A DNA stretch of 20,937 bases from a virus (lineage: Duplodnaviria; Heunggongvirae; Uroviricota; Caudoviricetes): IMG/VR virus record IMGVR_UViG_2713896832_000003. The stretch is one strand, 5' to 3'. Below are positions 2,430 to 16,742 of the stretch, in pieces. The notes under the pieces were generated by a model, which was not told where the DNA came from, did not search any database, and was given only the letters and a program-made list of their open reading frames with translations. The translations under genes were made by a program, and so were the position numbers. Positions within the stretch are counted from its first letter, which is position 1, and every line of letters starts with the position of its first letter.

Positions 2430-4901
2430 TTAAGAATCAGCCTGACTCGGGATCAGTTTTTGCCAGATAACTGAAACGTATTTTGCCTGGTAACGGGCGT
2501 CATCAAGTGCATTATGGCGCTCACCTTCGAATTGAATAGCCGTTCTGGCATCGAAGTCTATGACTTTCCCCAGCTCAACGATTGTGCGTACATCGCGATC
2601 GTTGTAGTAACGCCACGGGCAGGGGATCCCCTGCCGTTCGTATGAACGGCGCAAAATCGTGTTGTCGAAGTTGGCTCCATTCCCCCAAACCTGAACAAAA
2701 AATTCACCGGAGTTTTCGTCGATAAATTCCCGCAATTGTAACAGTGCATCATCTAACGGGATTTCATCGGTCATAATGGCAGATTGCGCTTCGCGTGATT
2801 GCTTAAGCCACCATTTAATGGTGTCCCGATCAATGACTCCGCCAGCAGTTTCCAGATCGATAGTCTTACTAAATTCCGGTCCCATATCTCCGGTTTGCGG
2901 ATCGAAAAATATTGCACCTATTGAGGTGATCGGGGCATCAGGATTTTTTCCCATGGTTTCAAGGTCGATCATTAGATGGTCACACGTCCTGCTGGTGGAT
3001 GTGATTTCGTGATGACCGTTCACCTTAATTGGGTGATCTGCCGTCTCGCCAGTTTCATTATCGCTATTGTGATGCTGATTGCCGCCAGTGTTCTCCTTGT
3101 GTGGATGTTCAGCGCCTTCCATTTCCTCCGGATCATCTTCCTGAACTTCAACCTGATACTCTTCATCGAATGTTTCTTGGTATGTTGCGTCGCCCATCAC
3201 CGCGCCACAATCAGGGCAGTTGCCGCCGCCGGTCTGACCGCAGGCGGTGCAGACTTTTTCCACTTCCTGTTGCGCTACTGGTTCAGGCTGTTTCGTTTCT
3301 GGCTCGTTTTGTAACGCATTTGGACTGTTTTGTTCCGCTTTTTGGTAGTTCCGTTCCGATTCATGCTGGTTCTGGTTCACAGAATCGCGGGTCTGGATCC
3401 CCTTAACCCATTTCGGATCATTCGGGTCACTAATCCCTTCAACAAATTCACCACGTGATGCAGCAAGCAACTTATCAGCGTCAGGCTGGCTGATATTGGC
3501 TGCCTGCATAATTTTGTTTACTTCGTCAGCGGTAACTTTTATCGGCTCTGGTTGTTCTGAATCTTCAGCGGTATCTACATTTTGCGGTAAGCCCGTGTAT
3601 GTGCCATTTTTTCGGGCAAAATATTCTTCTTTTGTGATTTCAGTGGCGCCAGCAGCCAGTGCCTTATCCAGACCAGAAAGTTTGTTTGCGCGACCGTATT
3701 TTTCTCCGTCCTTATCTGCGAAGAGGAAATAGAACGGCCCCTCACGCTCTACAGATGGTTCAGCTTCCGGCGCGGTTTCATTTTTTGGGATATCAGATAC
3801 CTCAGTTTCCACTGCATCAGTTTGTGTTTCTGATGACTGGAGAACATCAACAGTGCCCAGGTCTGTTTCTTCATTCTCAAACACGCCCTTTGTCGTCAGG
3901 TATTCGCAGATATATTTGTTCAGTGCTACGGGATCTTTGTGAATGTCGATCGGACGCTCACGGACAAGGCCAAAAATAGTTTGGCGGTCGTAGCGAAGGG
4001 CATCAGGCTGTTTGCGCATTGATGCCGAGATACGCTTCCAGTCTTCGCGGTCGTTGTCGATAACTTCTTTTTTTGCCCAGCGATGGATGCTGCCGTCAAT
4101 GTTTCCGGCATCCACATCACCAGGCCAGAGAGCGTAGGCCAGTTCGTCATCCAGTGTTTTCCATGTCTGCTTGTATTCGCGATGAATGGCAGCAATGACC
4201 GGGCTGATTTTTCCTGTTGAATTTTCAGTGTACTGTTGATTGGCTCTGGCGCGTGCGAGATCAACAACAGACGTGTATTTTCCGGTTTCCTTGCGTTCAC
4301 CTTCGCGACGTTTTTTCCAGATGCGCATCTCTGCCTGAATTTCGGGCCATTTAGCACCAGGAATACATTTATGCTTAACCCACCCAATGGCGTGCAACTT
4401 AAGCTCCGGATACATGGCGTTAACTTCTGGCATTTTCATCAACGCTTCAACGATATGTCCGTCGAATGTTGCCATGTCTTCCTGCAACAATTCCTGTGCG
4501 CTAATAACCATATCAACGGTGATGTTTTCACATGTGTCGAACTTAACCATGACAGCGTTCTGTACTTCAGGGGCCAGCTTGTCAAAAGTGACGTTCATCG
4601 GATCGGATTCAGTCTCAACCGGGACAAAAGAAGCAGACTCCTCATCCCAGCGGTTTTCCTGCATATATTCAGCATCCCATGAATCGAGGGCAGGGCGGGG
4701 TATGCCAGGTTTATCCTCGCAGACAATAAATTTATAAGCGCAGTCCTGAGCAGCCGGATAATGTTCCAGGAATTGCCAGTGAAATTTTGCTCGAGCACGG
4801 CGTTCGTCGCCAGCTTCAATGGCTGTGGCTACAGCCACAGCGCCTTCTTCCCTTGTTGCCAGTTCGTCAGGAATAGCGGCGCAAATAAAGACTTTACTCA
4901 T
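2430..4901 (-). CDS. exodeoxyribonuclease VIII-like protein: RecE-like central region with a DnaQ/DEDDh-type 3'-5' exonuclease C-terminal domain
   Basis: 823-aa ORF. The central acidic/Q-rich segment with zinc-ribbon CTACGQTGGGNCPDCG resembles the RecE middle region as I recall it. The C-terminal ~180 aa carry DEDDh-like motifs (MIDLETMG...; ...WGNGANFD...; ...HNALDDARYQAKY). Confidence 0.8.
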   Translation of the reverse strand: MSKVFICAAIPDELATREEGAVAVATAIEAGDERRARAKFHWQFLEHYPAAQDCAYKFIVCEDKPGIPRPALDSWDAEYMQENRWDEESASFVPVETESDPMNVTFDKLAPEVQNAVMVKFDTCENITVDMVISAQELLQEDMATFDGHIVEALMKMPEVNAMYPELKLHAIGWVKHKCIPGAKWPEIQAEMRIWKKRREGERKETGKYTSVVDLARARANQQYTENSTGKISPVIAAIHREYKQTWKTLDDELAYALWPGDVDAGNIDGSIHRWAKKEVIDNDREDWKRISASMRKQPDALRYDRQTIFGLVRERPIDIHKDPVALNKYICEYLTTKGVFENEETDLGTVDVLQSSETQTDAVETEVSDIPKNETAPEAEPSVEREGPFYFLFADKDGEKYGRANKLSGLDKALAAGATEITKEEYFARKNGTYTGLPQNVDTAEDSEQPEPIKVTADEVNKIMQAANISQPDADKLLAASRGEFVEGISDPNDPKWVKGIQTRDSVNQNQHESERNYQKAEQNSPNALQNEPETKQPEPVAQQEVEKVCTACGQTGGGNCPDCGAVMGDATYQETFDEEYQVEVQEDDPEEMEGAEHPHKENTGGNQHHNSDNETGETADHPIKVNGHHEITSTSRTCDHLMIDLETMGKNPDAPITSIGAIFFDPQTGDMGPEFSKTIDLETAGGVIDRDTIKWWLKQSREAQSAIMTDEIPLDDALLQLREFIDENSGEFFVQVWGNGANFDNTILRRSYERQGIPCPWRYYNDRDVRTIVELGKVIDFDARTAIQFEGERHNALDDARYQAKYVSVIWQKLIPSQADS

Positions 4902-4994: not shown

Positions 4995-5186
4995 TTAAAG
5001 ACCTGCCGGGATTTCGATATTATCCTGGTTAATAACTTTATCGACCGGGTAACAGTTACCGGGAATTTTCTGTTCGGTTGCTGCAGTCATACACTCCTGC
5101 ATTGTCCTGTGAACACTGACTGCAATATCAACTGGCACTCCGGAAACAAGAAAAACTGTCAGAACAAGCGCAAATGCTGAATTCAT
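4995..5186 (-). CDS. ydfD: YdfD-like small protein (63 aa, N-terminal hydrophobic segment)
   Basis: The ORF track gives 81 aa, but the internal Met (MNSAFALVLTVFLVSG...) start at 5186 forms an ATGA overlap with the dicB stop, implying translational coupling. Size and position match ydfD downstream of dicB in Qin (recalled). Confidence 0.5.
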   Translation of the reverse strand: MNSAFALVLTVFLVSGVPVDIAVSVHRTMQECMTAATEQKIPGNCYPVDKVINQDNIEIPAGL

Positions 5187-5475: not shown

Positions 5476-5697
5476 TTGTATCGTGAGATCAGTGATGGAA
5501 AAAGTATTACGTACATGATCGCCGGGTTAAATAAAGAATATGGCGATGTGGTGGAATCCGGACTGCTTTTTGCAGATCCTGCCGTTGTAGATCGTGAAAC
5601 TGACGAACTTATAGAAAAAGCAATTGCTTTCAAGCTTGCGTATCGACAGCAATACCAACAAAAAGCTGGATGGAATTATGAGTCTTCTTTTTGCTGA
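5476..5697 (+). CDS. hypothetical small protein (TTG start as listed; internal ATG at 5515 possible); uncertain
   Basis: 73-aa ORF with protein-like composition, whereas the overlapping minus-strand ORF 5436..5633 is Ser/Thr-rich and low-complexity. No motif recognised; overlaps the start of the replication gene. Confidence 0.25.
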   Translation: MYREISDGKSITYMIAGLNKEYGDVVESGLLFADPAVVDRETDELIEKAIAFKLAYRQQYQQKAGWNYESSFC

Positions 5698-6643
5698 ACG
5701 CCCACTGGTTATAAACACGCAGCTGGCAATGAAAATTGGCTTAAACGAAGCCATTGTTTTGCAACAACTGCACTACTGGTTGAGAGATACCAACTCCGGC
5801 ATGGAATGTGATGGTGTTCGCTGGATTTATAACACAACGGAACAATGGCTGGAACAGTTCCCATTCTGGTCAGAGTCAACGTTAAAGCGCGCGTTTGCAA
5901 GTCTGAAAACGCTGGGGCTTTTGCGTTGTGAAAAGCTCAATAAATCAAAGCGCGATATGACCAATTTCTACACGATCAACTACGGGAGCGAGCTTTTAGA
6001 TGGTGGCAAATTGAGCGAATCCATCGGTTTAAAATGCGCCGCTCCATCAGGTCAAAATGACACGATGGAAGAGGTCAAAATGAAACGCTCCATTGGTTCA
6101 AAACGACTCAATGTCATCGGGTCAAAATGGCCTGATGATCTTACAGAGAATACAACAGAGATTACTACAGAGAATAAAAAGACTTCTCGTCCGGAAGCTT
6201 CGCAACCGGACCCGCAGACGGTTGAACAGGATTTTTTAACCCGACACCCTGACGCGGTTGTGTTCAGTGCGAAAAAACGCCAGTGGGGCAGCCAGGAAGA
6301 TTTGGCGTGTGCGCAGTGGATCTGGGGGCGAATCGTGAGTCTTTACGAGCAGGCCGCCAGCGATGATGGCGAGATTTCGCGACCGAAAGAACCCAACTGG
6401 ACCGCATGGGCCAACGACGTGCGCACAATGCGGATGCTGGATGGCAGAACTCACAGACAAATTTGTGAAATGTTTGGTCGGGTGCAGCGGGATCCATTCT
6501 GGGTAAAAAATATCATGAGTCCGTCAAAGCTTCGCGAAAAATGGGATGAACTGGTTATCCGCCTGGGGCGTTCGTCTGTACAGCGTTGTGTGAATCATAT
6601 TTCTGAGCCGGATACCGAAATTCCGCCGGGCTTCAGGGGGTAA
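5624..6643 (+). CDS. phage replication initiator (lambda O-like replisome organizer)
   Basis: N-terminal winged-helix-like region (MSLLFAERPLVINTQLAMKIGLNEAIVLQQLHYWL...) typical of phage initiators, and the iteron array lies inside the gene as in lambda O. Likely true start is ATG 5678 (MSLLFAERPLV). Confidence 0.75.
   Translation: MLSSLRIDSNTNKKLDGIMSLLFAERPLVINTQLAMKIGLNEAIVLQQLHYWLRDTNSGMECDGVRWIYNTTEQWLEQFPFWSESTLKRAFASLKTLGLLRCEKLNKSKRDMTNFYTINYGSELLDGGKLSESIGLKCAAPSGQNDTMEEVKMKRSIGSKRLNVIGSKWPDDLTENTTEITTENKKTSRPEASQPDPQTVEQDFLTRHPDAVVFSAKKRQWGSQEDLACAQWIWGRIVSLYEQAASDDGEISRPKEPNWTAWANDVRTMRMLDGRTHRQICEMFGRVQRDPFWVKNIMSPSKLREKWDELVIRLGRSSVQRCVNHISEPDTEIPPGFRG
6020..6129. repeat. origin-like iteron array: five 17-bp direct repeats (consensus TCCATCrGGTCAAAATG) at exact 23-bp spacing
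   Basis: Copies start at 6020, 6043, 6066, 6089 and 6112. A 23-bp period is not a multiple of 3, so the repeat is a DNA-level signal rather than an amino-acid repeat. Followed at 6140-6180 by A/T-rich ACAGAGA(A/T)TA direct repeats. Confidence 0.65.
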
Positions 6644-6683
6644 GTGTTAATTTCTGGTCATGAGGTAATTTTCAGGAGGGCTT

Positions 6684-7106
6684 GTGGCAAAAGTTTTTAC
6701 ACAAGAAGAGCGGGAAAAAATTAAAGGGCAGGTTGTTGAACTCGTACGCCGGAGTGGGCGTGAGACGTTACGGCAACTGGAAGTCAAGACAGGTGCGACA
6801 AGATATCTGATGAGCGTTCTCGCAAGAGAGCTGGTTGCCAGCGGCGATGTATACAACTCTGGTTACGGGTTATTCCCGTCTGAACAGGCGCGTAAGGACT
6901 GGCAAAATGCCCGTAAAAAGCTCTCAAGGGCAAAGCTGAAGGAACCATCTGCGGTTGATCCGGACCTTATCTGGTCATTACCTGACGGAGAAATACGTCG
7001 TTACGACAGGCGTCATAATATGATTTGTACTGAGTGTCGTAAAAGCGAAGTTATGCAGCGCATATTGTCGTTTTATCAGGGGGATGTCCGGTATTTATTG
7101 AAGTGA
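6684..7106 (+). CDS. hypothetical phage protein, 140 aa
   Basis: GTG start 6 nt after an AGGAGG RBS (6672-6677), 40 nt downstream of the replication gene; basic, protein-like composition. Confidence 0.6.
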   Translation: MAKVFTQEEREKIKGQVVELVRRSGRETLRQLEVKTGATRYLMSVLARELVASGDVYNSGYGLFPSEQARKDWQNARKKLSRAKLKEPSAVDPDLIWSLPDGEIRRYDRRHNMICTECRKSEVMQRILSFYQGDVRYLLK

Positions 7107-7174
7107 CGAGATTAAAGTGCATTAGTTCAGATGCAAATTGACATTTTGTGGCACAGGGTAGAGCTAGCGTGGTT

Positions 7175-7198
7175 GTCCGCTTTGTGCCAAGAGCGGAC
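7175..7198. repeat. palindromic repeat, copy A (GTCCGCTTTGTGCCAAGAGCGGAC)
   Basis: Imperfect hairpin with GTCCGC(T) / (A)GCGGAC arms, between the convergent 6684 gene and the GIY-YIG gene; two mismatches to copy B. Confidence 0.5.
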
Positions 7199-7235
7199 TT
7201 TGCAAAATGGGGGTTATTTCAATCAAAACGTAACG

Positions 7236-8180
7236 TCACAACCAGCCGACGCTCTCTCGCCATTTATAATTAGTAACTTTATCATTTTCGCTTATTTTTT
7301 TAGATATAGAGCGCGGCTCTCTTCCTAGATACTCAGATATTTCTATCGGGGACAAATCAAAATCAACAAGCATGACTCTAAGTTTTTCCATTTCCTTTAA
7401 AGTCCAAGGCTTGCCATAATTTTCATAAAGAGATACCTTATGCTCCCTGATAGTTCGCTTTCTCTGAGTTTCACTTTCCCTCTGAAAAATCTCGCTTTTA
7501 AATTGTGAACGGAACTCTTTACAGAAGTTGTTATCAGTTTTTTTGTTATATAGATTGCTAAAAATAAGCTGGGATGCCGGGTCTAAATCAGGTGTGTTAA
7601 TAATGAAAACTTTGACCTTTTCCATATAGGGATATTCAATTTTACCCAATATGCTTAATTGCTTTATATTAAAAAAACCTCTCAAATCAAAAGATTTAAT
7701 GAGCTTTGATTGGATTACACTTTCAATCCTGCTTGCATTTAAATAACAGTACTTTGCCATTGGAAGGGCCCATACTACCAGTTGAGGAATATATTTTTCT
7801 AATGCAATGCTCTGCCAATCAGTATCAAAGGTTTGGCTTTTTGCTAGCATGTTTTTCGGCAAATCAGAATACATTGTGGTAGATGCCCATATCTTATAAT
7901 CATTCGCCAAGGCTTGATAGTATTTTGTGTGGTTATGAATTTTATAAGCTGACATGAAGCGATAAACGTCTTCGTCGTGACCAGCGTCGTAAATTGTTCG
8001 ATTTCCTCTAAGATAACCGTCGTAATGTTCGGTTATCCTTCTACCTACATTACAACTTACCCCAACGTAAACCACACGACTGAAAAGTCCTTTATGGACA
8101 ATAAGATAAACTCCGCTACAGCCAGATTTCCTGGCCTCTGATAGAGAACCTAAAAATCTCCATTCCATAATTAAATCCAT
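7236..8180 (-). CDS. GIY-YIG nuclease-domain protein with a C-terminal putative HTH region
   Basis: N-terminal SGVYLIVHKGLFSRVVYVGVSCNVGRRITEH fits the GIY...YIG...R...E pattern of GIY-YIG nucleases. The C-terminal ~60 aa (PWTLKEMEKLRVMLVDFDLSPIEISEYLGREPRSISKKIS) are HTH-like. AT-rich coding sequence. Confidence 0.7.
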   Translation of the reverse strand: MDLIMEWRFLGSLSEARKSGCSGVYLIVHKGLFSRVVYVGVSCNVGRRITEHYDGYLRGNRTIYDAGHDEDVYRFMSAYKIHNHTKYYQALANDYKIWASTTMYSDLPKNMLAKSQTFDTDWQSIALEKYIPQLVVWALPMAKYCYLNASRIESVIQSKLIKSFDLRGFFNIKQLSILGKIEYPYMEKVKVFIINTPDLDPASQLIFSNLYNKKTDNNFCKEFRSQFKSEIFQRESETQRKRTIREHKVSLYENYGKPWTLKEMEKLRVMLVDFDLSPIEISEYLGREPRSISKKISENDKVTNYKWRESVGWL

Positions 8181-8348
8181 AATTATTGCTACTGTTTTTG
8201 TTTATCATTATTTTCGTGAAACTTCAACAATTTTATCCAAAAGCTAAGGGCAAAGACTTATATAATTATACTTGTCATCGTTAGCGATTATATAGAGTAG
8301 TGGCGCTGACCTGCTCCCTGGTGATTCACACAGAATGCTGTTAGTAAT

Positions 8349-8372
8349 GTCCGTTCCTCGCTCTCAGCGGAC
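8349..8372. repeat. palindromic repeat, copy D (GTCCGTTCCTCGCTCTCAGCGGAC)
   Basis: Same arm sequences as copies A, B and C; about 170 nt upstream of the GIY-YIG gene start. Confidence 0.45.
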
Positions 8373-8390
8373 CTTCAGCTCAGTGATATC

Positions 8391-8414
8391 GTCCGCTCTG
8401 TGCAAAGAGCGGAC
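8391..8414. repeat. palindromic repeat, copy B (GTCCGCTCTGTGCAAAGAGCGGAC)
   Basis: 8-bp arms GTCCGCTC/GAGCGGAC around an 8-nt spacer; starts 42 nt after the start of copy D. Confidence 0.5.
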
Positions 8415-8727
8415 GTTGGTATGCAAGAGCCCTCCAAAAGTTGATGGTTGGTTTGCAGGGGGGCTTAAAGAAACTGCACTTATCAAGTTGAAGTTCTGTA
8501 TTCAGCGAAATCGTAGCACTCTGACGATAAGTAACTCCGGTACTCCGCTCTTCGATGAAGAACCAGAGTAATCCCCCCGAAAAACCAGCGCATCAAAATT
8601 GGATCTTCAGCGGTAGCTTATCGGCTATCGGAAGTACAGGTGTGGATTCGTGGTGAATTGCTTTGATAATAAACGATTAATACGGAAAAACGCATTAATC
8701 ATTTATTAGCTTTTAGTAAACCACAAT

Positions 8728-10077
8728 TTATTCCGTTTTACATATCATAGTAGTCGATTGGAGAATATAGTTTCTGGGAATGTACTCTTCAAAGTGTTCG
8801 TCCTTTTTAAATACATGAACTACATTTGGGAATAATTGATAGTCAACAGGGTGTATAGCGTTTGGATTATGGTACATGTACATGGCTGTACACCATGGTT
8901 CTTGATAGTTAGGGTCACTTACATCGGCTGAAAATGGATGTGGGGCTGCATCCTGATCAGTTTTAACACCACTGACGTACACTTTGAATCCACTCGCCTC
9001 TACACCTGCAAGAATTCCCATCCGGTTAAACTTAGGTATGGTTGCTTGAGTAGTGAGTAAAACGGCAGAAACATAATTATTTTGTTCTGAGCCAAAAAAG
9101 TTCGACTTGATACTTCTATTTTCATCTGTATGTCTTTCAATAGAAATGCCTGACTCAATATCAATCCCGTACAAATAGCTATGCAAGGCTTCGCTTGAGA
9201 AGGCCATGGACATTCTTTTTGAATAATCCTGCATTGCTATGACAAATGGTTTGTTCTTTGTATGGTTGAGTTCCCAGTAATGAACTTTCTCTGGCTCAGG
9301 GCAATGCCGGACTTTTTTTAATAAACTTCTTGCAAACTTAAAAGGCATGACATTTAGAACATGTTTTCTTAATTCATCCATCTGTTCATCGTTAATGACT
9401 TTTCTTTCAAGAGGGGCTTCTGCTTCAGCAATGCTTACAGCCTCTACAGCAATTTCCACTCCAAATTTAGATAGCAGAAAATCTGGTTGATTGTATTCTC
9501 TATTCATTTCAAAGTCGAGTTCATAAAATACAGCGTTCAAATATAATTCAAATAACCTTGAATTAAATGCATCACTTTGAAAATCCCTTATAAATATTCC
9601 ATCAGGATCTTTGAACCAGTATGCAAGTTCCTCAAGAACAATATATGCAGGGAAATGAAGAGGGTCTTCGAGGAGCATTTTTATATAAACATTCCTTTTT
9701 TTCGCTGGGACCTTACTCAAGAATAATGAAAAAGGTTTGGTTGATTCATCGCCTTGCATGAATGTACCATTTTGGTGCTGCGCCAGCATCTTTGGTATGT
9801 CATCGTTCAAATTATTAAGCAAGACATCCATTGAATCAAATGAAGCCAAGACGTTTATTGCTCTGAATTTTTTATCTAAATCCCGACCTAAGACTATTGC
9901 GTTAAAATCTTTATCAATATTGCATATGATTATTGTGGATAACAATGTTATCCCATTCCCCTCATATTTAAACCAGCGTATCTCCTCAGAAAATGTCTTA
10001 AGGTAAGGTGAGCGACCGTAAAAATAAATATCAAATTGTTCTTTGCTGATCTCACTGAAGTGTAATCCTGCGTTCAT
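8728..10077 (-). CDS. hypothetical protein, 449 aa, no recognised domain
   Basis: Long AT-rich ORF with an AAAAGGAA RBS before the ATG, upstream of and co-oriented with the GIY-YIG gene. A hairpin-plus-T-rich terminator candidate lies on the minus strand around 8672-8700. Confidence 0.7.
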   Translation of the reverse strand: MNAGLHFSEISKEQFDIYFYGRSPYLKTFSEEIRWFKYEGNGITLLSTIIICNIDKDFNAIVLGRDLDKKFRAINVLASFDSMDVLLNNLNDDIPKMLAQHQNGTFMQGDESTKPFSLFLSKVPAKKRNVYIKMLLEDPLHFPAYIVLEELAYWFKDPDGIFIRDFQSDAFNSRLFELYLNAVFYELDFEMNREYNQPDFLLSKFGVEIAVEAVSIAEAEAPLERKVINDEQMDELRKHVLNVMPFKFARSLLKKVRHCPEPEKVHYWELNHTKNKPFVIAMQDYSKRMSMAFSSEALHSYLYGIDIESGISIERHTDENRSIKSNFFGSEQNNYVSAVLLTTQATIPKFNRMGILAGVEASGFKVYVSGVKTDQDAAPHPFSADVSDPNYQEPWCTAMYMYHNPNAIHPVDYQLFPNVVHVFKKDEHFEEYIPRNYILQSTTMICKTE

Positions 10078-10361
10078 ACCAATTCCTTTTCAATGAATAA
10101 TTGGCCTTTAGGAGTGATTCCCTTTGTCTTTAATTCAGTTCTAACTAGTTCTTTAATCCAATAGCCTAAGCTCATCATGCAGTTGGATCATAAGACAACG
10201 CCCTATAGTGCTCGTGATACTATAGGGCATCTGACCACACTGTTAACTGGAGTAACGACTATGGCAGGAATACAGCATAACCAAACTCACCCCAAACTTA
10301 CATAGCGCTTTCTGGCCGTGAGCATAACAAGGTCCACTCCTCGCTCATAAGGGACAACCAT

Positions 10362-10394
10362 ACTCAAATCTCCCACATTGCAGGAGATTTGAGT
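10362..10394 (+). promoter_or_regulatory. 12-bp perfect inverted repeat whose right arm covers the RBS of the recombinase gene
   Basis: ACTCAAATCTCC (10362-10373), 9-nt loop, GGAGATTTGAGT (10383-10394), ending 1 nt before ATG 10395. Would sequester the Shine-Dalgarno sequence in the mRNA. Confidence 0.4.
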
Positions 10395-10997
10395 ATGAAC
10401 ACGTCACCGTGGAACAAAGACCGTATCATAGGCCAAAAAAGACCACTTCAGATATCTCATATCTGGGGTATCCGAATCCGACTTGAACTGGAAGGTAAAA
10501 CTCGCGATTTAGCTCTGTTCAACATGGCCCTGGATAGTAAGCTTCGAGGCTGTGATCTGGTCAAACTCAAAGTATCTGATGTTGCATATGGTGGCTCTGT
10601 TTCAAGCAGAGCAACGGTGTTGCAACAGAAAACCGGTAGCCCTGTTCAATTTGAGATAACCAAAGGGACAAGAGAAGCTGTTGCTGCATTGATACAGCTT
10701 AGCAATTTGCACAGTAAAGACTTCTTGTTTCGGTCTAGGGTCGGAACTAACCAGCACATTTCAACCCGGCAATACAACCGAATCTTTCATGGGGGGGTAG
10801 AAAAGCTTGGTCTCGAAGATTCGCTTTACAGCACACATTCCATGAGAAGAACAAAACCTTACCTGATCTACAAGAAAACCAAGAATCTCCGGGTGATCCA
10901 ACTTCTGTTGGGTCATAAGAAACTGGAAAGCACAGTCCGTTATCTGGGCATTGAAGTCGATGATGCGTTAGAGATTTCTGAATCGATTGAAGTCTAA
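10395..10997 (+). CDS. FimB/FimE-like short tyrosine recombinase (catalytic domain only, ~200 aa)
   Basis: Contains the tyrosine-recombinase catalytic residues in order (LRGCDL; QQKTGSPVQ; HSMRRT; LLLGHKKLESTVRYL) but no N-terminal core-binding domain, the FimB/FimE architecture. The ORF track starts at TTG 10389; ATG 10395 with an AGGAG RBS is more likely. Confidence 0.8.
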   Translation: MNTSPWNKDRIIGQKRPLQISHIWGIRIRLELEGKTRDLALFNMALDSKLRGCDLVKLKVSDVAYGGSVSSRATVLQQKTGSPVQFEITKGTREAVAALIQLSNLHSKDFLFRSRVGTNQHISTRQYNRIFHGGVEKLGLEDSLYSTHSMRRTKPYLIYKKTKNLRVIQLLLGHKKLESTVRYLGIEVDDALEISESIEV

Positions 10998-11003
10998 GGT
11001 TGT

Positions 11004-11025
11004 CAGGGCTGCAACAGCAGCCCTG
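11004..11025. terminator. hairpin just after the recombinase stop (CAGGGCTGC-AACA-GCAGCCCTG)
   Basis: 9-bp perfect stem 7 nt after the TAA; no clear U-tract, so terminator function is uncertain. Confidence 0.35.
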
Positions 11026-11356
11026 TGCCATAAGCGGAAGTATTTAACAACTATCAGTGTTGTTCAACAGATAAAGGGGCACTTGATTTTTTCTGTTCTC
11101 AGGAAATGATAAAAGCGCGTCGGTTCAAGCCTGCTTAACGGGAGTTTGTTAATCCTGTTGCCGTGACGTTTTGACACCATTATGATGGGGAGACACTTAA
11201 TGTATGAAGGTTCCGCCACTTATACCTGTCCAACAACTGCCTCGGATGTTTCTTTGTATGAATAAGTGGTAATGAGTAGTGAATCGCTAACAGTCACCCG
11301 AACAATCGGTGCCTGCAATTAATTCTATATTCTAAACGAGGGGGAGATTATTACAC

Positions 11357-12337
11357 ATGAAATTTAAGGACAAGAACCTTAAGGCTCTCGCGGAATGTAT
11401 CATAGGAGATAATAAGGCATTTCTGTATCGTTCAAGCAGTCACATCACTGAATTTTTCCAGGACTGCGGCATGGATGTTACTCATGACGGATCCACTCGG
11501 TGGAAATGGACGGCCCAGAGGCTTGAAGAACTTCTTTATGAGCCACAGTCAAAGCCACATACTTTGCCGGAAAGGTTTGTTCATGTGCTCAGAACTTTAA
11601 TGTTAAAAGAAGATGCAATGGATGACGATCCAGGAAGATTAAAGGCGCTTGAAGAACTGAACAAGCCTTTGATGCGGGAAGGCTATGAGGCATTCTATGG
11701 TGACGATCGCCTTTTGTATATACGCCATACCGATACCAAAACGGTTTCAGTCAGTAATAACCCTCATCGGCCCTTAACGCCTCACGAAGTAGAATGCAGA
11801 AGGTTACTGACCGCGTTTCTTGATACCTGCTCAGAAGATGAGTTAATAGAAGATATTCTCCTTCCTTTATTCCGGCAACTTGGTTTTCACCGGATAACAG
11901 CAGTGGGACATAAAGATAAAGCGCTGGAATACGGGAAAGACATCTGGATGAAGTTCACACTGCCAACTCAGCATGTTCTTTATTTCGGCATTCAGGCAAA
12001 AAAAGGTAAGTTGGATGCGTCCGGTGCCAGCAAATCTACGAATTCAAACGTGGCAGAAATCTTCAACCAGGTACTGATGATGCTTGGCCATGAAATATTT
12101 GACCCAGAAACAAATAGAAAGGTGCTGGTAGATCATGCCTTTATCGTTGCTGGCGGAGAAATTACTAAACAGGCGAGGAACTGGCTGGGCGGGAAACTTG
12201 ATGCCAGCAAAAGAAGCCAGATAATATTTATGGACCGGGAAGACATTCTTAATTTATATACTGTAAGTAATGTACCTCTGCCAACAGGTGCTCTCATCTC
12301 TGATGATGCCGTTAAGAACGATGATATTCCTTTCTAA
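11357..12337 (+). CDS. hypothetical protein with an Mrr-like (PD-(D/E)xK, D...QxK) nuclease motif in the C-terminal half
   Basis: Strong RBS GAGGGGGAG before the ATG. Motif ...EYGKDIWMKF...HVLYFGIQAKKGKL resembles the Asp...Gln-x-Lys catalytic signature of Mrr-type restriction endonuclease domains; the N-terminal ~160 aa are unassigned. Confidence 0.65.
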   Translation: MKFKDKNLKALAECIIGDNKAFLYRSSSHITEFFQDCGMDVTHDGSTRWKWTAQRLEELLYEPQSKPHTLPERFVHVLRTLMLKEDAMDDDPGRLKALEELNKPLMREGYEAFYGDDRLLYIRHTDTKTVSVSNNPHRPLTPHEVECRRLLTAFLDTCSEDELIEDILLPLFRQLGFHRITAVGHKDKALEYGKDIWMKFTLPTQHVLYFGIQAKKGKLDASGASKSTNSNVAEIFNQVLMMLGHEIFDPETNRKVLVDHAFIVAGGEITKQARNWLGGKLDASKRSQIIFMDREDILNLYTVSNVPLPTGALISDDAVKNDDIPF

Positions 12338-12561
12338 TCAGAAGTACGTCTTTTTCTGAAAGAATACGTGATAGGTAGCCACACCACACCTTTAGTGACC
12401 CCTTAATCTGGTAATATAACAGCCCGTATGAATGTCCGCGGCATCGCGGGCTGAAATTTATTAAAAATACTTATTCATCAAGCTGGAGTAGTTTGCCGAG
12501 TAACTGTAAACGCCCAACTTAACCGGACCATTCACTTTTAGATTGCTACCAGCAAACCAAC

Positions 12562-12585
12562 TTCCGTTTCTCGCTCAAAGCGGAC
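12562..12585. repeat. palindromic repeat, copy C (TTCCGTTTCTCGCTCAAAGCGGAC)
   Basis: Closest to copy D; lies ~225 nt after the Mrr-like gene at the right edge of the AT-rich island. Confidence 0.45.
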
Positions 12586-12764
12586 TAGAAGGTTAGCTTG
12601 CGTCGGACTTGGCGTATTTAAAGAAGTGCTGGTGGTAACTGGTTGTTGTGTTCCATTTCTACAAAACAAAATCACAGAAACTATACCCAATAGTTATATT
12701 GAATCAATGATGAGACAGCCTCATATTTATCAGAACTGGTGTACGTCCAATACAGGAGGTTGTC

Positions 12765-12854
12765 GTGCTGGTTCTCAAATATGCGCTAGCTATTGCGGCT
12801 GTAATGGCAATTTATTGTCTTGCTATTGTTCTTACGGATCGCCTTTCTGATTGA
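12765..12854 (+). CDS. candidate small hydrophobic peptide, 29 aa (MLVLKYALAIAAVMAIYCLAIVLTDRLSD)
   Basis: GTG start 5 nt after a perfect AGGAGG (12754-12759); single predicted transmembrane-like helix. Not in the ORF track because of size; overlaps the listed 12626..12850 Cys-rich ORF in another frame. Confidence 0.3.
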   Translation: MLVLKYALAIAAVMAIYCLAIVLTDRLSD

Positions 12855-13065
12855 TTTTATATTGGCGAGGTGACGGGAGTTAAGTAGAATTGCTGCGGGT
12901 GCTTGAGGCTATCTGCCTCAGGCATGAACACCAAAGGCAGATAGAGAAAAGCCCCAGTTAACATTACGCGTCCTGCAAGACGTTTAACATTAATCTGAGG
13001 CTCAATCTATGAACGGCAAATCTAGGTTAGCCTCTTACGTGCCGAAAGGCAAGGAGAAGCAGGCT

Positions 13066-13221
13066 ATGAAGCAGCAAAAGGCGATGTTAATCGCCCTGAT
13101 CGTCATCTGTTTAACCGTCATAATGACGGCACTGGTAACGAGGAAAGACCTCTGCGAGGTACGAATCCGAACCGGCCAGACGGAGGTCGCTGTCTTCACA
13201 GCTTACGAACCTGAGGAGTAA
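13066..13221 (+). CDS. hokD: Hok/Gef family membrane toxin HokD (RelF)
   Basis: 51-aa product MKQQKAMLIALIVICLTVIMTALVTRKDLCEVRIRTGQTEVAVFTAYEPEE matches recalled HokD; AAGGAG RBS at 13051-13056. The listed ORF 13009..13221 is an in-frame 19-codon upstream extension. Confidence 0.85.
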   Translation: MKQQKAMLIALIVICLTVIMTALVTRKDLCEVRIRTGQTEVAVFTAYEPEE

Positions 13222-13290
13222 GAGACCAGGCGGGGGAGAATCCCTCGCCACCTCTGATGTGTCAGGCATCCTCAACGCACCCGCACTTAA

Positions 13291-13320
13291 CCCGCTTCGG
13301 CGGGTTTTTGTTTTTATTTT
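13291..13320 (+). terminator. rho-independent terminator after hokD
   Basis: CCCGC-TTCG-GCGGG stem-loop followed by TTTTTGTTTTT. Confidence 0.6.
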
Positions 13321-13436
13321 CAACGCGTTTGAAGTTCTGGACGGTGCCGGAATAGAATCAAAAATACTTAAGTAGCGCGCAGGGATAAGAGGGATGGTCC
13401 CTTAAAGGGGAGAGCTAATTATCCGGAAGGATTCTG

Positions 13437-13688
13437 ATGATGAACATCGAAGAACTGCGTAAAATTTTTTGTGAAGATGGCCTCTATGCTGTGTGCGTTG
13501 AAAATGGAAATCTTGTTAGTCATTACCGCATTATGTGTTTGCGAAAGAATGGGGCTGCGTTAATTAATTTTGTGGATGGTCGAGTGACAGACGGATTTAT
13601 CTTGCGCGAAGGTGAGTTTGTCACTTCATTACAGGCACTGAAAGAGATTGGAATAAAAGCAGGCTTTTCAGCTTTTGCAGAAGAATAA
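13437..13688 (+). CDS. rem: Rem-like small protein, 83 aa
   Basis: GGAAGG RBS; 83-aa ORF directly downstream of hokD, matching the size and position of rem in Qin (recalled gene order hokD-rem-ydfU-quuQ). Sequence identity is not independently verified. Confidence 0.5.
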   Translation: MMNIEELRKIFCEDGLYAVCVENGNLVSHYRIMCLRKNGAALINFVDGRVTDGFILREGEFVTSLQALKEIGIKAGFSAFAEE

Positions 13689-13754
13689 ACTCATCTACAA
13701 TCTTGCGCGGGGCTGAACTCCCGCTGAGTAACACCGTGCCACCGGAGAAAACCG

Positions 13755-14033
13755 ATGGCACGCAACGTAAAATATTACAATTCTGATAATTCGCCCGTTC
13801 TTGCCTGCACGCACGAGCGGTATTCTCACGCATTCAAGTCTGAATGGTTCCAGCACCCTCCATGCACTGAAGAGCAGGCTGAATGGATAATTCAGTGTTA
13901 CCGCAGGCGCGGATACGAGGTTAAGAAAGCTCTTAGTCTCGACTACCGTCACTGGATAATCTCAGTCAGATTGCCTTACTCCGAACGCCCACCGCGTCCG
14001 TCCCGTACATTCCAGCAACGCATCTGGAGGTAA
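13755..14033 (+). CDS. hypothetical phage protein, 92 aa
   Basis: GGAGA RBS; its stop overlaps the RBS of the next gene, giving a tight operon with the downstream genes. Confidence 0.55.
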   Translation: MARNVKYYNSDNSPVLACTHERYSHAFKSEWFQHPPCTEEQAEWIIQCYRRRGYEVKKALSLDYRHWIISVRLPYSERPPRPSRTFQQRIWR

Positions 14034-14034
14034 C

Positions 14035-15084
14035 GTGCGGGTATTACTTCGACCTGTTCTGGTACCGGAACTCGGGCTGGTGGTCGTTAAGCCGGGCCGT
14101 GAATCCATGCCGGTATTCCACAATACCCGGGTACTGGTGGAGCCGGAACCGAAAAGCATGCGTAATCTGCCGTCCGGGGTCGTTCCTGCCGTTCGCCAGC
14201 CGCTGGTGGAAGACAAAACATTGCTGCCGTTTTTCAGTAACGCACGGGTAATTCGTGCTGCTGGTGGTGCTGGTGCATTGTCTGACTGGCTGTTGCGCCA
14301 TATTAAATCCTGCCAGTGGCCACACGGCGATTATCATCACAGCGAAACCGTCATTCACCGTTATGGTACCGGCGCAATGGTGTTGTGCTGGCACTGCGAC
14401 AACCAGCTGCGTGACCAGACATCCGAATCACTCGAGCAACTTGCTCATCAAAACCTGTCAGCATGGATGATTGACGTCATCGGTCACGCAATAAGCGGTA
14501 CGCAGGAGCGTGAATTATCTTTGGCTGAATTATCCTGGTGGGCGGTCCGCAATCAGGTGGCGGACGCGCTACCGGAAGCGGTATTACGTGGTTCGCTGGG
14601 GTTGCGTGCGGAAAAAATCCGCTCAATGTACCGTGAAAGCGACATCGTACCGGGAGAGCAGACCGCCAACAGCATACTGAAACAGCGCACAAAAAATCTT
14701 GCGCCGCTGCCTCACGCCCACCAGCAACAGAACCCACCACAGGAAAAGACGGTGGTCAGCATTGCCGTTGATCCTGAGTCTCCGGAATCTTTCATGAAAC
14801 GACCTAAACGTCGCCGCTGGGTTAACGAGAAATACACACGCTGGGTGAAGACACAGCCGTGTGCGTGTTGTGGTAAGCCAGCCGACGATCCCCATCACCT
14901 GATTGGTCATGGTCAGGGCGGAATGGGGACAAAATCTCACGATATTTTCACGCTACCGCTGTGTCGGGAGCATCACAACGAGCTTCATGCGGATCCTCTG
15001 GCGTTCGAAGAAAAGCATGGTTCTCAGGTTGATTTAATTTTTCGTTTTCTTGATCACGCCTTTGCAACTGGCGTGCTTGGGTAA
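14035..15084 (+). CDS. ydfU: YdfU-like (DUF968-type) protein with a C-terminal Cys/His HNH-like motif
   Basis: GTG start 5 nt after GGAGG; 349 aa; C-terminal ...CACCGKPADDPHHLIGHGQGGMGTKSHDIFTLPLCREHHNELH. Sits between rem and rusA/Q as in Qin-type prophages. Confidence 0.75.
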   Translation: MRVLLRPVLVPELGLVVVKPGRESMPVFHNTRVLVEPEPKSMRNLPSGVVPAVRQPLVEDKTLLPFFSNARVIRAAGGAGALSDWLLRHIKSCQWPHGDYHHSETVIHRYGTGAMVLCWHCDNQLRDQTSESLEQLAHQNLSAWMIDVIGHAISGTQERELSLAELSWWAVRNQVADALPEAVLRGSLGLRAEKIRSMYRESDIVPGEQTANSILKQRTKNLAPLPHAHQQQNPPQEKTVVSIAVDPESPESFMKRPKRRRWVNEKYTRWVKTQPCACCGKPADDPHHLIGHGQGGMGTKSHDIFTLPLCREHHNELHADPLAFEEKHGSQVDLIFRFLDHAFATGVLG

Positions 15085-15096
15085 AAGAGGTGACTG

Positions 15097-15471
15097 ATGC
15101 TCATAGATTTGGTTTTACCTTACCCGCCGACGGTGAACACTTACTGGCGACGCCGTGGCAGCACATATTTTATCTCGGAGGAGGGAAAGCGTTATCGCCG
15201 GGCTGTGGCGCTTATTGTTCGCCAGCAGCGGCTGAAATTAAGCCTGTCCGGAAGGCTGGCGATAAAGGTGATTGCAGAGCCACCGGATAAGCGTCGTCGC
15301 GACCTGGACAATATCCTGAAAGCACCGCTGGATGCGCTGACGCATGCGGGAGTGTTAATGGACGATGAGCAGTTTGATGAAATCAATATCGTTCGTGGTC
15401 AGCCAGTATCTGGTGGACGTCTGGGGGTGAAGATTTACCCCATAATGCATGAAGAGCAGGTCAAAAAATGA
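15097..15471 (+). CDS. rusA: RusA Holliday junction resolvase
   Basis: 124 aa with LPYPPTVNTYW ... RRDLDNILKAPLDALTHAGVLMDDEQF, the characteristic RusA motifs; AAGAGG RBS. Confidence 0.9.
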   Translation: MLIDLVLPYPPTVNTYWRRRGSTYFISEEGKRYRRAVALIVRQQRLKLSLSGRLAIKVIAEPPDKRRRDLDNILKAPLDALTHAGVLMDDEQFDEINIVRGQPVSGGRLGVKIYPIMHEEQVKK

Positions 15472-16432: not shown

Positions 16433-16508
16433 GGCCCTTTAGCTCAGTGGTGAGAGCGAGCGACTCATAATCGACAGGTCGCTGGGTCAAATCCAGCAAG
16501 GGCCACCA
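16433..16508 (+). tRNA. tRNA, anticodon CAU, Ile2 (ileX-like)
   Basis: 76 nt; 7-bp acceptor stem GGCCCTT/AAGGGCC, 4-bp D stem, anticodon loop CTCATAA, discriminator A and encoded CCA. Resembles E. coli tRNA-Ile2 as recalled, but has two mismatches in the anticodon stem and G at T-loop position 54. Confidence 0.7.
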
Positions 16509-16509
16509 A

Positions 16510-16586
16510 CCGTCACCAGTTCATCAGGAAAGAGCGTCAACCCTTTAAGTTGAGTGTGCGAGGTTCGAGTCCCCGGTGGCGGTCCA
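16510..16586 (+). tRNA. atypical tRNA-like gene, anticodon loop CCTTTAA (anticodon UUU if functional); possibly a pseudo-tRNA
   Basis: Folds as a cloverleaf with encoded CCA, but has C1-G72, C at position 8, C at position 33 and one T-stem mismatch. Confidence 0.4.
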
Positions 16587-16588
16587 GT

Positions 16589-16664
<76 letters not shown>

Positions 16665-16667
16665 TAT

Positions 16668-16742
<75 letters not shown>

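What the first reader, a model, noticed from the sequence alone, without database searches (positions are those of the whole stretch)
10078..10997. FimB/FimE-like short recombinase with an RBS-sequestering hairpin and long leader: possible DNA-inversion switch
The ~200-aa recombinase has the full catalytic residue set but no core-binding domain, the architecture of fim-switch-type invertases that flip promoter segments. It is preceded by a ~310-bp leader containing a 9-bp palindrome (CCCTATAGT ... ACTATAGGG, ~10200-10226), and a perfect 12-bp hairpin covers its own Shine-Dalgarno sequence. An invertible or excisable segment controlled by this enzyme, perhaps using the palindromic repeats, could make expression of the neighbouring nuclease genes phase-variable.
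Basis: partly seen in the sequence, partly recalled or inferred. Interest (0 to 1): 0.6.

Follow-up and report, generated by a model that had tools for sequence, protein, structure and literature searches.

The report
Recombinase inside a gene-cassette junction
A small recombinase gene in a defective E. coli prophage sits between two short palindromic DNA sites that also bound the neighbouring anti-phage gene cassettes, so it most likely cuts and pastes such cassettes between phages, genomic islands and plasmids rather than flipping a promoter.

Summary
The ORF (10395-10997, 200 aa), its complete catalytic set, the missing core-binding domain and the hairpin over its ribosome-binding site are real. 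The hairpin is 15 bp, not 12. The "310-bp leader" is not a leader: 10078-10355, including the palindrome, belongs to the neighbouring PD-T7-1 defence cassette, which occurs without the recombinase in other phages.

The enzyme is not FimB/FimE-like by score, and nothing around it inverts: 181 complete E. coli genomes carry the region collinear.

Region 7175-12585 is an array of three cargo cassettes. They are bounded by 24-bp sites with 8-bp inverted arms (GTCCGCTC/GAGCGGAC) and an 8-bp spacer of two kinds, H and B. The recombinase gene lies inside one junction (B-gene-H'). The other junction is a 66-bp gene-less version. The same sites bound cassettes in P2-like phages (including P2 fun(Z)), lambdoid prophages, genomic islands and plasmids, and are co-oriented with the recombinase. 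Comparison with phage mEp460 shows reciprocal hybrid B sites sharing only the 8-bp core.

Best reading (about 0.6): a dedicated cassette excision, integration and exchange system. No recombination was observed directly. The window's allele carries W134G at a nearly invariant residue and may be weakened. The flanking repeats at P2 fun were reported in 2004; I found no report linking this recombinase to them.

The parts
7175..7198 (+). H site (left end of the array): GTCCGCTT TGTGCCAA GAGCGGAC, 8-bp inverted arms around an 8-bp spacer
   Evidence: The same site with the same left flank precedes other cargo in mEp460 (L001) and strain CP53 (L097).
7236..8180 (-). Cassette 1 cargo: 314-aa protein, weak GIY-YIG match
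   Evidence: Pfam GIY-YIG E 0.017, below cut-off. RefSeq names near-identical copies 'GIY-YIG nuclease family protein'. The block 7175-8384 recurs at 99.3% identity in a genomic island (L089).
8349..8414 (+). Recombinase-less junction: B site (8349-8372), 18-nt linker (8373-8390), H site (8391-8414)
   Evidence: 25 distinct B-linker-H junctions in other loci, 17 with an 18-nt linker. Similar sequence in 742 of 5426 E. coli genomes.
8728..10077 (-). Cassette 2 cargo: PD-T7-1 anti-phage gene (449 aa)
   Evidence: PADLOC PD-T7-1 E 7.3e-157. The cassette 8391-10355 is in mEp460 and in the Z/fun hotspot of P2-like phages.
10200..10246 (-). Promoter-like site (-35 at 10246-10241, -10 at 10224-10219) and 10-bp palindrome (10200-10209 / 10219-10228) of the PD-T7-1 cassette; not part of the recombinase module
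10332..10355 (+). B site next to the recombinase: GTCCACTC CTCGCTCA TAAGGGAC (degenerate inner arm)
   Evidence: Its left half matches the mEp460 B site, and its right half is constant upstream of recombinase genes in other loci. A B site lies 63 nt before the start codon in independent viral contigs.
10359..10397 (+). Perfect 15-bp hairpin that sequesters the SD and the ATG
10395..10997 (+). Tyrosine recombinase, 200 aa, catalytic domain only; W134G substitution at 10794-10796 within a G7 run (10791-10797)
11004..11039 (+). Stem-loop 11004-11012 / 11017-11025 overlapping the H' site 11016-11039 (AGCAGCCC TGTGCCAT AAGCGGAA, degenerate inner arm); right edge of the conserved recombinase module
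   Evidence: Homology of the recombinase module in other E. coli contexts ends at 11038-11041. An H site lies about 20 nt after the stop codon in other loci.
11357..12337 (+). Cassette 3 cargo: 326-aa protein with no family match
12562..12585 (+). B site (right end of the array): TTCCGTTT CTCGCTCA AAGCGGAC
   Evidence: Its right half plus flank equals the right half plus flank of the mEp460 B site.

Best explanation
The ORF encodes a single-domain tyrosine recombinase that sits inside a junction element.

Layout of the junction: B site (10332-10355), hairpin, gene, H' site (11016-11039). B and H are two variants of one 24-bp core-type site. Each has 8-bp inverted arms, GTCCGCTC and GAGCGGAC, around an 8-bp spacer. 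B and H lie in opposite orientation: the B spacer is CTCGCTCA, and the H spacer read on the other strand is CTGGCACA, which differs at 2 of 8 positions.

Layout of the array: cargo cassettes lie between an H site on the left and a B site on the right. Neighbouring cassettes are joined either by this roughly 0.7-kb recombinase-bearing junction or by a 66-bp gene-less junction (B, 18 nt, H).

Inferred mechanism: the enzyme binds the arms and exchanges strands in the spacer between like sites (B with B, H with H). This would excise cassette circles that carry a junction, insert them at any like site, and swap cassettes between replicons that share an H...B pair. The spacer difference between B and inverted H would disfavour inversion.

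Inferred role of the hairpin: the 15-bp SD/ATG hairpin keeps translation of the recombinase very low, for example in read-through transcripts from the upstream cassette. This resembles the way several insertion sequences restrain their transposases.

What is shown: the anatomy, its conservation and the recombinant joints. What is inferred: binding, cleavage positions and the control of expression.
For: (1) Modular anatomy. Relative to phage mEp460_ev081, the window has two extra blocks, 7203-8390 and 10356-12585, each flanked by a directly repeated site (H/H and B/B).

(2) Reciprocal hybrid sites. The mEp460 B site is GTCCACTC-CTCGCTCA-AAGCGGAC. That equals the left half of window B 10332 plus the right half of window B 12562. 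The two window sites share only the 8-bp core; their arms differ at 4 of 8 and 3 of 8 positions. This is the pattern expected for conservative insertion of a circle at B, and 8 bp is too little identity for ordinary homologous recombination.

(3) The same cassettes recur in unrelated backbones, with edges at the sites:
- PD-T7-1 in a lambdoid prophage and in the P2-like Z/fun locus;
- the GIY-YIG-like cassette in a genomic island;
- BetT+DUF2254 in a lambdoid prophage and next to the recombinase on plasmid pPGRT46;
- P2 fun(Z) itself lies between an H and a B site.

(4) Physical linkage. In enterobacterial and IMG/VR loci a B site lies 63 nt before the start codon and an H site about 20 nt after the stop codon. 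The array pattern H-cargo-B-recombinase-H-cargo-B recurs.

(5) Enrichment and polarity.
- In 1.49 Mb of loci: H+ 57, B+ 55, H- 8, B- 7, against 4, 2, 4 and 1 in reversed-sequence controls.
- In an independent 0.80 Mb of viral contigs: 54, 33, 3 and 3, against 0.

(6) Distant homologues (60-65% identity).
- The gene is flanked by inverted copies of a GTCCGCT-type sequence: at least 13 of 16 matches in 32 of 73 loci, against 5 of 73 with shuffled downstream flanks.
- The upstream motif is present in 27 of 94 contexts, against 8 of 94 in the control.

(7) The enzyme looks functional as a family. About 200 aa is the norm, the catalytic hexad is invariant, and there are 526 clusters at 50% identity with E <= 1e-30. 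It is present in 848 of 5426 E. coli genomes and 441 plasmids.

(8) The hairpin is a family trait. An uninterrupted stem of at least 7 bp that includes the SD occurs in 52% of 73 distinct leaders, against 11% with shuffled upstream arms. There are 35 different 5' arm sequences among the stems of at least 6 bp.

(9) Site architecture (8-8-8, asymmetric spacer) is that of classical tyrosine-recombinase core sites (established knowledge of lox, FRT and dif).
Against: No recombination product, circle or population heterogeneity was observed. All 181 genomes with this array are identical and collinear.

The window's allele has W134G at a residue conserved in at least 90% of homologues, so this copy may be weak or dead.

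Breakpoint mapping across many pairs is noisy. It cannot generally separate exchange in the spacer from exchange anywhere in the conserved 24 bp.

The inner arms of the recombinase-proximal sites are degenerate. No convincing promoter for the gene was found.

Arrays begin with a lone H and end with a lone B, which a single like-site crossover cannot create.

Many variants of the same lambdoid hotspot (DUF977-hokD) carry cargo with no H or B sites at all, so this system is only one route of variation there.

In distant clades the motif is enriched but found in only about 30% of contexts.
Confidence: 0.6

Rival explanations
1. Selfish junction element. The unit B-recombinase-H' is a small tyrosine-recombinase insertion element with terminal inverted repeats (GTCCGCT...AGCGGAC), and the 66-bp junctions are its miniature, gene-less derivatives. 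It spreads into intergenic spots of accessory regions for its own sake. Cassette shuffling is then a by-product of recombination, site-specific or not, between dispersed copies, much as with IS26 arrays.
For: The gene is bracketed by inverted sites in many clades. Gene-less 66-bp versions are frequent. So are remnants that keep only the 5' or 3' end of the gene next to a site. Two full copies bracket a metal-resistance cassette beside a Tn3-family transposase in L050.
Against: No target-site duplications or element-free 'empty' intergenic sites were identified. The lone H and lone B at array ends look like halves of a junction rather than insertions. This reading overlaps heavily with the best explanation, because the same enzyme acts on the same sites.
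Confidence: 0.2
2. Passive sites. H and B are only conserved stem-loops (mRNA-end or terminator-like elements) that serve as microhomology for phage or host homologous recombination. The recombinase is an unrelated passenger, or a decayed one in this window.
For: H folds into a stable hairpin as single-stranded DNA (RNA not folded). Many H/B-bounded cassettes sit in phages with no recombinase (P2, vB_YpM_46, mEp460). Broad breakpoint mapping is compatible with exchange anywhere in the conserved 24 bp. W134G is present in this copy.
Against: The sites lack T-runs and were not called as terminators, and B often does not fold. The recombinase is flanked by the sites at fixed distances in independent collections and is co-oriented with them. 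In the window/mEp460 joint only 8 bp are shared. Absence of the gene in cis parallels integron cassette arrays that lack an integrase, and 16% of E. coli genomes could supply the enzyme in trans.
Confidence: 0.12
3. FimB/FimE-type invertase. The enzyme flips a promoter-bearing segment and makes the neighbouring genes phase-variable.
For: Same size and single-domain architecture as FimB/FimE. Each cassette is flanked by sites in opposite orientation (H against B).
Against: FimB/FimE models score about a tenth of their cut-offs. No orientation variants were found in 181 genomes. PD-T7-1 has the same orientation relative to H and B in three backbones. The spacers of B and inverted H differ at 2 of 8 positions.
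Confidence: 0.04
4. Multimer-resolution (Xer- or Cre-like) recombinase of plasmids and islands, or a truncated prophage integrase fragment.
For: The weak best sequence matches are to XerD, XerA and XerH catalytic domains. The gene is found on 441 plasmids.
Against: Most E. coli copies are chromosomal (848 chromosomal and 22 plasmid places in E. coli genomes), lying within arrays that hold several sites of two kinds. The roughly 200-aa length is conserved over 526 clusters with an invariant catalytic set and conserved termini, so this is not a fragment. The prophage has its own 431-aa integrase at 791-2086.
Confidence: 0.04

Closest known systems
Integrons (IntI, attI, attC cassette arrays)
   Same: A dedicated tyrosine recombinase is next to an array of promiscuous gene cassettes, each ending in a short imperfect-palindrome site. 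Arrays without the enzyme also exist. The cargo is rich in anti-phage genes.
   Different: The enzyme is half the size, has no core-binding domain and does not match integron-integrase models (17 bits against cut-offs of 435 and 265). The sites are 24-bp double-strand-type 8-8-8 cores in pairs, not 57-141-nt folded attC hairpins. Cassettes are larger (0.6-7.5 kb, median 1.9 kb), often hold several genes, face either way and carry their own promoters. The gene sits inside a junction, not at the head of the array.
pdif modules of Acinetobacter plasmids (XerC/XerD sites bounding resistance modules)
   Same: Modules are bounded by short core-type sites in alternating orientation and recur in different replicons.
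   Different: pdif modules rely on the host XerCD and on single 28-bp dif-like sites. Here there is a dedicated recombinase, unrelated site sequences and two sites per junction.
Inverted repeats flanking fun(Z) in P2-like phages (Nilsson, Karlsson and Haggard-Ljungquist 2004, Mol Biol Evol 21:1)
   Same: Very probably the same H and B sites. I find them around P2 fun(Z). [quoted passage not shown]
   Different: I could not read the 2004 paper. Nothing I could read names a recombinase, the two-site junctions, the arrays in lambdoid prophages and plasmids, or the spread of the family beyond enterobacteria. A 2026 survey of P2/P4 hotspots still calls the mechanism unknown (PMC13586616).
FimB/FimE fimbrial phase-switch recombinases
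   Same: About 200 aa, catalytic domain only, act (or would act) on short inverted repeats.
   Different: Different family by score. No invertible promoter segment and no orientation variants.
IS26 translocatable units; Cre/lox recombinase-mediated cassette exchange with heterospecific sites
   Same: Works like these in outline: a unit made of one junction plus adjacent cargo inserts conservatively next to an existing copy, and two non-cross-reacting sites around a cargo allow clean replacement.
   Different: IS26 uses a DDE transposase, and cassette exchange with lox variants is an engineered method. The analogy is functional only.

Membership tests
Tyrosine recombinase superfamily (Pfam PF00589) | Match to the family model above the curated cut-off | tested here: met
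   63.9 bits against a cut-off of 27.1, E 2.1e-17, residues 37-186
Tyrosine recombinase superfamily (Pfam PF00589) | Catalytic R-K-H-R-H/W plus Tyr nucleophile | tested here: met
   R51, K79, H148, R151, H174 and Y183 are invariant in 36 sequences. The region aligns to the XerD catalytic domain.
FimB/FimE tyrosine-type DNA invertases | Score at or above the NCBIfam cut-offs (PRK09871, PRK09870) | tested here: not met
   27.5 and 19.2 bits against 222 and 221
FimB/FimE tyrosine-type DNA invertases | Short invertible promoter segment between inverted repeats, found in both orientations in populations | tested here: not met
   181 of 181 complete genomes are collinear across 6700-13100. No inverted pair brackets a promoter next to the gene. 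Read-level heterogeneity is not testable here.
Integron integrases and integrons | IntI model match (with the IntI-specific insertion) | tested here: not met
   17.6 and 17.2 bits against cut-offs of 435 and 265. The protein is 200 aa.
Integron integrases and integrons | attC sites: 57-141-nt imperfect palindromes recombined as folded single strands | tested here: inconclusive
   The junctions are 63-66 bp with two 24-bp palindromes. Single-stranded DNA folding gives two separate small hairpins, and B often does not fold. Single- versus double-strand use cannot be decided in silico.
Xer recombinases (XerC/D/A/H/S) | Score at or above the NCBIfam cut-offs, and an N-terminal core-binding domain | tested here: not met
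   Best score is 54.6 bits against 220 (XerA). Only the catalytic domain aligns, and about 35 residues precede it.
PD-T7-1 anti-phage system (neighbouring 449-aa gene) | Full-length match to the PADLOC PD-T7-1 model | tested here: met
   E 7.3e-157, residues 8-447 on model positions 2-448 of 452. Defence activity was not tested here.
H/B cassette system (as defined in this report) | Recombinase gene flanked by a B site upstream and an H site downstream; cargo flanked by H (left) and B (right), all co-oriented | tested here: met
   Window sites at 7175, 8349, 8391, 10332, 11016 and 12562. The same pattern occurs in independent loci.
H/B cassette system (as defined in this report) | The recombinase binds and recombines H and B sites | not testable with these tools
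   Needs biochemical or genetic assays.

The most novel reading that the evidence does not exclude
A single-domain tyrosine recombinase family, together with paired 24-bp sites, forms a previously unrecognised cassette-mobilising system. It resembles an integron in outcome but differs in enzyme, sites and cassette type. It would be the missing mechanism by which defence genes (P2 fun(Z), PD-T7-1, PARIS, SIR2-HerA, Septu and others) and other accessory genes hop between P2-like and lambdoid prophage hotspots, genomic islands and plasmids across Proteobacteria.
Probability: 0.45. Interest if true: 0.9.

Novelty: new variant of a known kind. Interest (0 to 1): 0.72.

Why it matters
Surveys of phage and satellite defence hotspots document very fast swapping of anti-phage systems. 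[quoted passage not shown] 2022).

If this recombinase acts on the H and B sites, it supplies a concrete, testable mechanism for part of that traffic. It would also explain a 20-year-old observation about P2 fun(Z).

Three practical uses would follow:
- A simple sequence signature (H...B) for delimiting cassettes and finding new defence genes.
- A compact 200-aa recombinase with two non-cross-reacting 24-bp sites, which would be attractive for cassette exchange in engineering.
- A conserved SD-sequestering hairpin that offers an entry point to how such an enzyme is kept silent.

Tried and rejected
- MAFFT plus RNAalifold on 73 leaders gave no consensus structure, because the stems were misaligned. 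I replaced it with per-sequence folding and a stem search against shuffled controls; the first version of that script had a motif-overlap bug.
- AlphaFold2 on a shallow alignment (24 sequences, at least 77% identical) gave a poor model (pLDDT 63, pTM 0.47). I did not use it and ran no fold search.
- phmmer against the PDB found nothing; a profile search was needed.
- Pairwise first-mismatch mapping of breakpoints was too noisy to fix the exchange point.
- The exact 7- to 8-mer arm motif is enriched but far from universal near distant homologues.
- I looked for H and B sites in six other variants of the DUF977-hokD hotspot. Four had none, so the hotspot itself is not defined by these sites.
- Literature searches for an existing description of this recombinase or cassette system found none. 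Nilsson 2004, Christie and Calendar 2016 and Odegrip 2006 are not held.
- Rejected: terminator function for H and B (no T-runs); Xer/dif use (my recollection is that the sites do not resemble dif; not compared with a tool); known RNA families in the region (Rfam finds only sok and tRNAs).
Full report
**1. What the window is.**
The window is a defective lambdoid prophage of E. coli. Its features, in order:
- integrase at 791-2086 (minus strand);
- a long exonuclease-like gene at 2430-4901 (minus strand);
- replication genes at 5624-6643, and a DUF977 gene at 6684-7106;
- the region of interest at 7.1-12.6 kb;
- hok/sok at 12897-13071;
- DUF968, RusA-like and Q-like genes at 14.0-16.3 kb;
- four tRNA genes;
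- an ORF that fuses a holin-like N-terminus to a tail-tip protein.

The 6.4-kb stretch 6700-13100 occurs in 181 complete E. coli genomes (listed full-length hits 100% identical; the recombinase ORF at least 99% in 181 records).

**2. The observation.**
The ORF at 10395-10997 encodes a 200-aa protein. It matches the tyrosine recombinase catalytic domain (PF00589, E 2.1e-17). R51, K79, H148, R151, H174 and Y183 are all present and invariant across homologues.

A profile of the family aligns only to the C-terminal catalytic domains of XerD, XerA and XerH. About 35 residues remain upstream, so there is no core-binding domain.

The hairpin is a perfect 15-bp inverted repeat, 10359-10373 / 10383-10397. 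It buries both the GGAG and the ATG. The RNA fold has z = -4.6.

By itself it is not beyond chance.

The '310-bp leader' is a misreading. The block 8391-10355 includes 278 bp of that gap and the palindrome. It is found as one unit at 99.6% identity in phage mEp460_ev081 and at 98.9% in P2-like Yersinia phages, none of which has the recombinase. The palindrome overlaps the best promoter-like match of the region, which points at the divergent 449-aa gene. That gene is the anti-phage system PD-T7-1 (PADLOC E 7e-157).

**3. What the region really is.**
A repeat search showed two families of 24-bp sequences at 7175, 8349, 8391, 10332 and 12562. A sixth, degenerate copy lies at 11016.

All share 8-bp inverted arms (consensus GTCCGCTC ... 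GAGCGGAC) around an 8-bp spacer. The spacer is TGTGCCAA-like in what I call H sites and CTCGCTCA in what I call B sites. Read on the other strand, the H spacer is CTGGCACA. So H is an inverted B with two spacer changes.

The order in the window is:
- H at 7175
- cassette 1 (314 aa, weak GIY-YIG match)
- B at 8349, an 18-nt linker, H at 8391
- cassette 2 (PD-T7-1)
- B at 10332, the hairpin, the recombinase, a stem-loop, H' at 11016
- cassette 3 (326 aa, no match)
- B at 12562

The recombinase gene therefore occupies a junction between two cassettes, in the place where the other junction has only an 18-nt linker.

**4. Evidence that these sites are recombination joints.**
Phage mEp460_ev081 has the same backbone but only cassette 2. 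Its H site joins the backbone to cassette 2. Its B site is GTCCACTC-CTCGCTCA-AAGCGGAC. That is the left half of window B 10332 joined to the right half of window B 12562.

The two window sites share only the 8-bp core, and their arms differ at 4 and 3 of 8 positions. This is the reciprocal pattern left by conservative insertion of a circle (recombinase, H', cassette 3, B) at a B site. The identity is too short for ordinary homologous recombination.

The same logic holds for the other cassettes:
- Cassette 1 (7175-8384) recurs in a genomic island. There the left arm of its H site and the right arm of its B site are changed along with the flanks.
- A BetT+DUF2254 cassette lies behind the same backbone H site in strain CP53, and next to the recombinase on plasmid pPGRT46.
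- The PD-T7-1 cassette sits between genes G and FI of P2-like phages.
- In phage P2 itself, fun(Z) lies between an H site (15335-15358) and a B site (17432-17455).

A broad pairwise analysis places the switch between flank-linked positions 8 and 16/17 in most H pairs. It is too noisy to prove exchange in the spacer.

**5. Evidence that links the enzyme to the sites.**
- In E. coli the conserved recombinase module runs from within the B site (10333-10341) to within H' (11038-11041). The cargo on either side varies.
- In enterobacterial genomes, plasmids and an independent set of IMG/VR contigs, a B site lies 63 nt before the start codon and an H site about 20 nt after the stop codon. The pattern H-cargo-B-recombinase-H-cargo-B recurs.
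- Site counts are far above reversed-sequence controls and are co-oriented with the gene. The first set gives 57 H+, 55 B+, 8 H- and 7 B- against 4, 2, 4 and 1. The second set gives 54, 33, 3 and 3 against none.
- I found 25 different gene-less junctions, mostly with an 18-nt linker of loosely conserved sequence. Similar sequence is present in 742 of 5426 E. coli genomes.
- Remnants that keep only the first 19 nt or the last 40 codons of the gene next to a site are common. This suggests that gene-less junctions arise by internal deletion.
- In homologues of 60-65% identity from Pseudomonas, Burkholderiales, methylotrophs and others, the gene is often bracketed by inverted copies of a GTCCGCT-type sequence. 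At least 13 of 16 positions match in 32 of 73 loci, against 5 of 73 with shuffled downstream flanks.
- The exact arm motif is enriched but present in only about 30% of contexts.

**6. The family and its cargo.**
The protein family is large and unusually conserved:
- at least 77% identity among the 120 best hits, which span Enterobacterales, Alteromonadales and others;
- at least 60% identity across Gamma- and Betaproteobacteria;
- 526 clusters at 50% identity with E <= 1e-30, mostly 200-250 aa.

It is present in 848 of 5426 complete E. coli genomes and in 441 plasmids. In IMG/VR it lies inside the Z/fun hotspot of P2-like prophages and in the DUF977-DUF968 hotspot of lambdoid ones.

I scanned 81 cargo proteins from H...B intervals (58 intervals detected, median 1.9 kb, range 0.6-7.5 kb, plus five cargo proteins added by hand, including the window's 326-aa protein and P2 Fun(Z)).
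- Defence-related: PD-T7-1, SIR2-HerA, PARIS, Septu, HEC-08, NsnB, Lit-type peptidase, AbiGi, HEPN and HNH proteins.
- Other accessory functions: BCCT and MFS transporters, a TonB receptor with an ABC importer, dehydrogenases and regulators.

**7. The hairpin.**
In 73 distinct leaders, an uninterrupted stem of at least 7 bp that includes the SD is found in 52%, against 11% when the upstream arm is shuffled. Stems of at least 9 bp are found in 25% against 2%. There are 35 different 5' arm sequences among the stems of at least 6 bp. MFE folds pair at least 3 of 4 SD bases in most leaders.

The stem is therefore kept by selection while its sequence changes. I infer that it holds translation very low, perhaps specifically in read-through transcripts, as in several insertion sequences. 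I found no convincing promoter between the B site and the ORF. What opens the stem is unknown.

**8.
The enzyme shares size and architecture with FimB/FimE but not family membership. It scores 27.5 and 19.2 bits against cut-offs of 222 and 221. No inversion is seen: the region is collinear in all 181 genomes that carry it. PD-T7-1 has the same orientation relative to H and B in three backbones.

**9. Caveats.**
- Nothing here shows catalysis.
- The window's own allele carries a T-to-G change that turns the nearly invariant W134 into G and creates a G7 run. Eight close homologues have TGG. This copy may be impaired, which would fit the frozen state of the array in 181 genomes.
- The system does not explain all variation at this hotspot. 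Four of six other cargo variants between DUF977 and hokD have no H or B sites.
- How a first H...B pair reaches a new backbone is unexplained, as is why the inner arms next to the gene are degenerate.

**10. Prior knowledge.**
A review summarises Nilsson et al. [quoted passage not shown] These are very probably the H and B sites.

I could not read that paper. Nothing I could read assigns a recombinase or describes the junctions and arrays.

Rousset et al. 2022 speculated about cos-proximal recombination. [quoted passage not shown]

I therefore rate this a new variant of a known kind (recombinase-driven cassette systems). Confidence in the mechanism is moderate, and interest is high if it is confirmed.

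Noticed in passing
window 10791-10797 (codon 134 at 10794-10796): The recombinase allele has GGG (Gly) where eight close homologues have TGG (Trp). W134 is conserved in at least 90% of the family. The change creates a run of seven G. This copy may be weakened or inactive, and 181 E. coli records carry the ORF at 99% identity or more (listed hits 100%).
   Followed up: partly
window 17035-19197: The ORF starts like a lambdoid holin ([24 protein letters not shown]...; identified from memory, no tool run) and continues as the C-terminal part of a tail-tip (J-like) protein, right after the tRNA genes. The prophage seems to have lost its lysis, head and most tail genes through one large deletion.
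   Followed up: no
window 12897-13071 and 16433-16742: A hok/sok toxin-antitoxin locus (Rfam sok, 111.7 bits) lies just right of the array. Four phage tRNA genes (Met, Lys, Thr, Gly) lie downstream of the Q-like gene.
   Followed up: no
NC_001895 (phage P2) 15335-15358 and 17432-17455; locus L101: The classical P2 moron fun(Z) is bounded by an H site on the left and a B site on the right. That makes it a cassette of the same kind as those in the window.
   Followed up: yes
L003 (Yersinia phage vB_YpM_22) about 5000-5075: A B-type core (the CGCTCA spacer and the recombinase-type right arm), the SD hairpin and the first 19 nt of the recombinase ORF are fused directly to the P2 backbone upstream of gene FI. 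This is a remnant showing that a recombinase-bearing junction once sat in this phage's Z/fun hotspot.
   Followed up: partly
L097 (E. coli CP53 prophage) and L098 (plasmid pPGRT46): The same BetT (BCCT transporter) plus DUF2254 pair (DUF2254 protein accession identical) lies behind an H site in a lambdoid prophage and on an IncFIB plasmid (MOB-suite typing), where the recombinase lies about 2 kb downstream beyond another ORF. Cargo is therefore not limited to defence genes.
   Followed up: partly
L050 (Stutzerimonas chloritidismutans) 6037-14306: Two copies of the recombinase bracket a HupE/UreJ plus metal-sensing repressor cassette, next to a Tn3-family transposase. Several other loci (L009, L019, L076) also hold two copies.
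   Followed up: partly
window 6684-7106 to 12897 (DUF977 to hokD): This interval is a variable hotspot in lambdoid prophages of E. coli. Other cargo there includes SIR2, Kiwa KwaB-like, QueH, SMEK plus a methyltransferase, DUF4209 and an alpha/beta hydrolase. Four of six variants examined lack H and B sites.
   Followed up: partly
window 11357-12337: The 326-aa cargo protein of cassette 3 has no match in Pfam, NCBIfam or PADLOC. Given its position in a defence-rich cassette array, it is a candidate new anti-phage gene.
   Followed up: no
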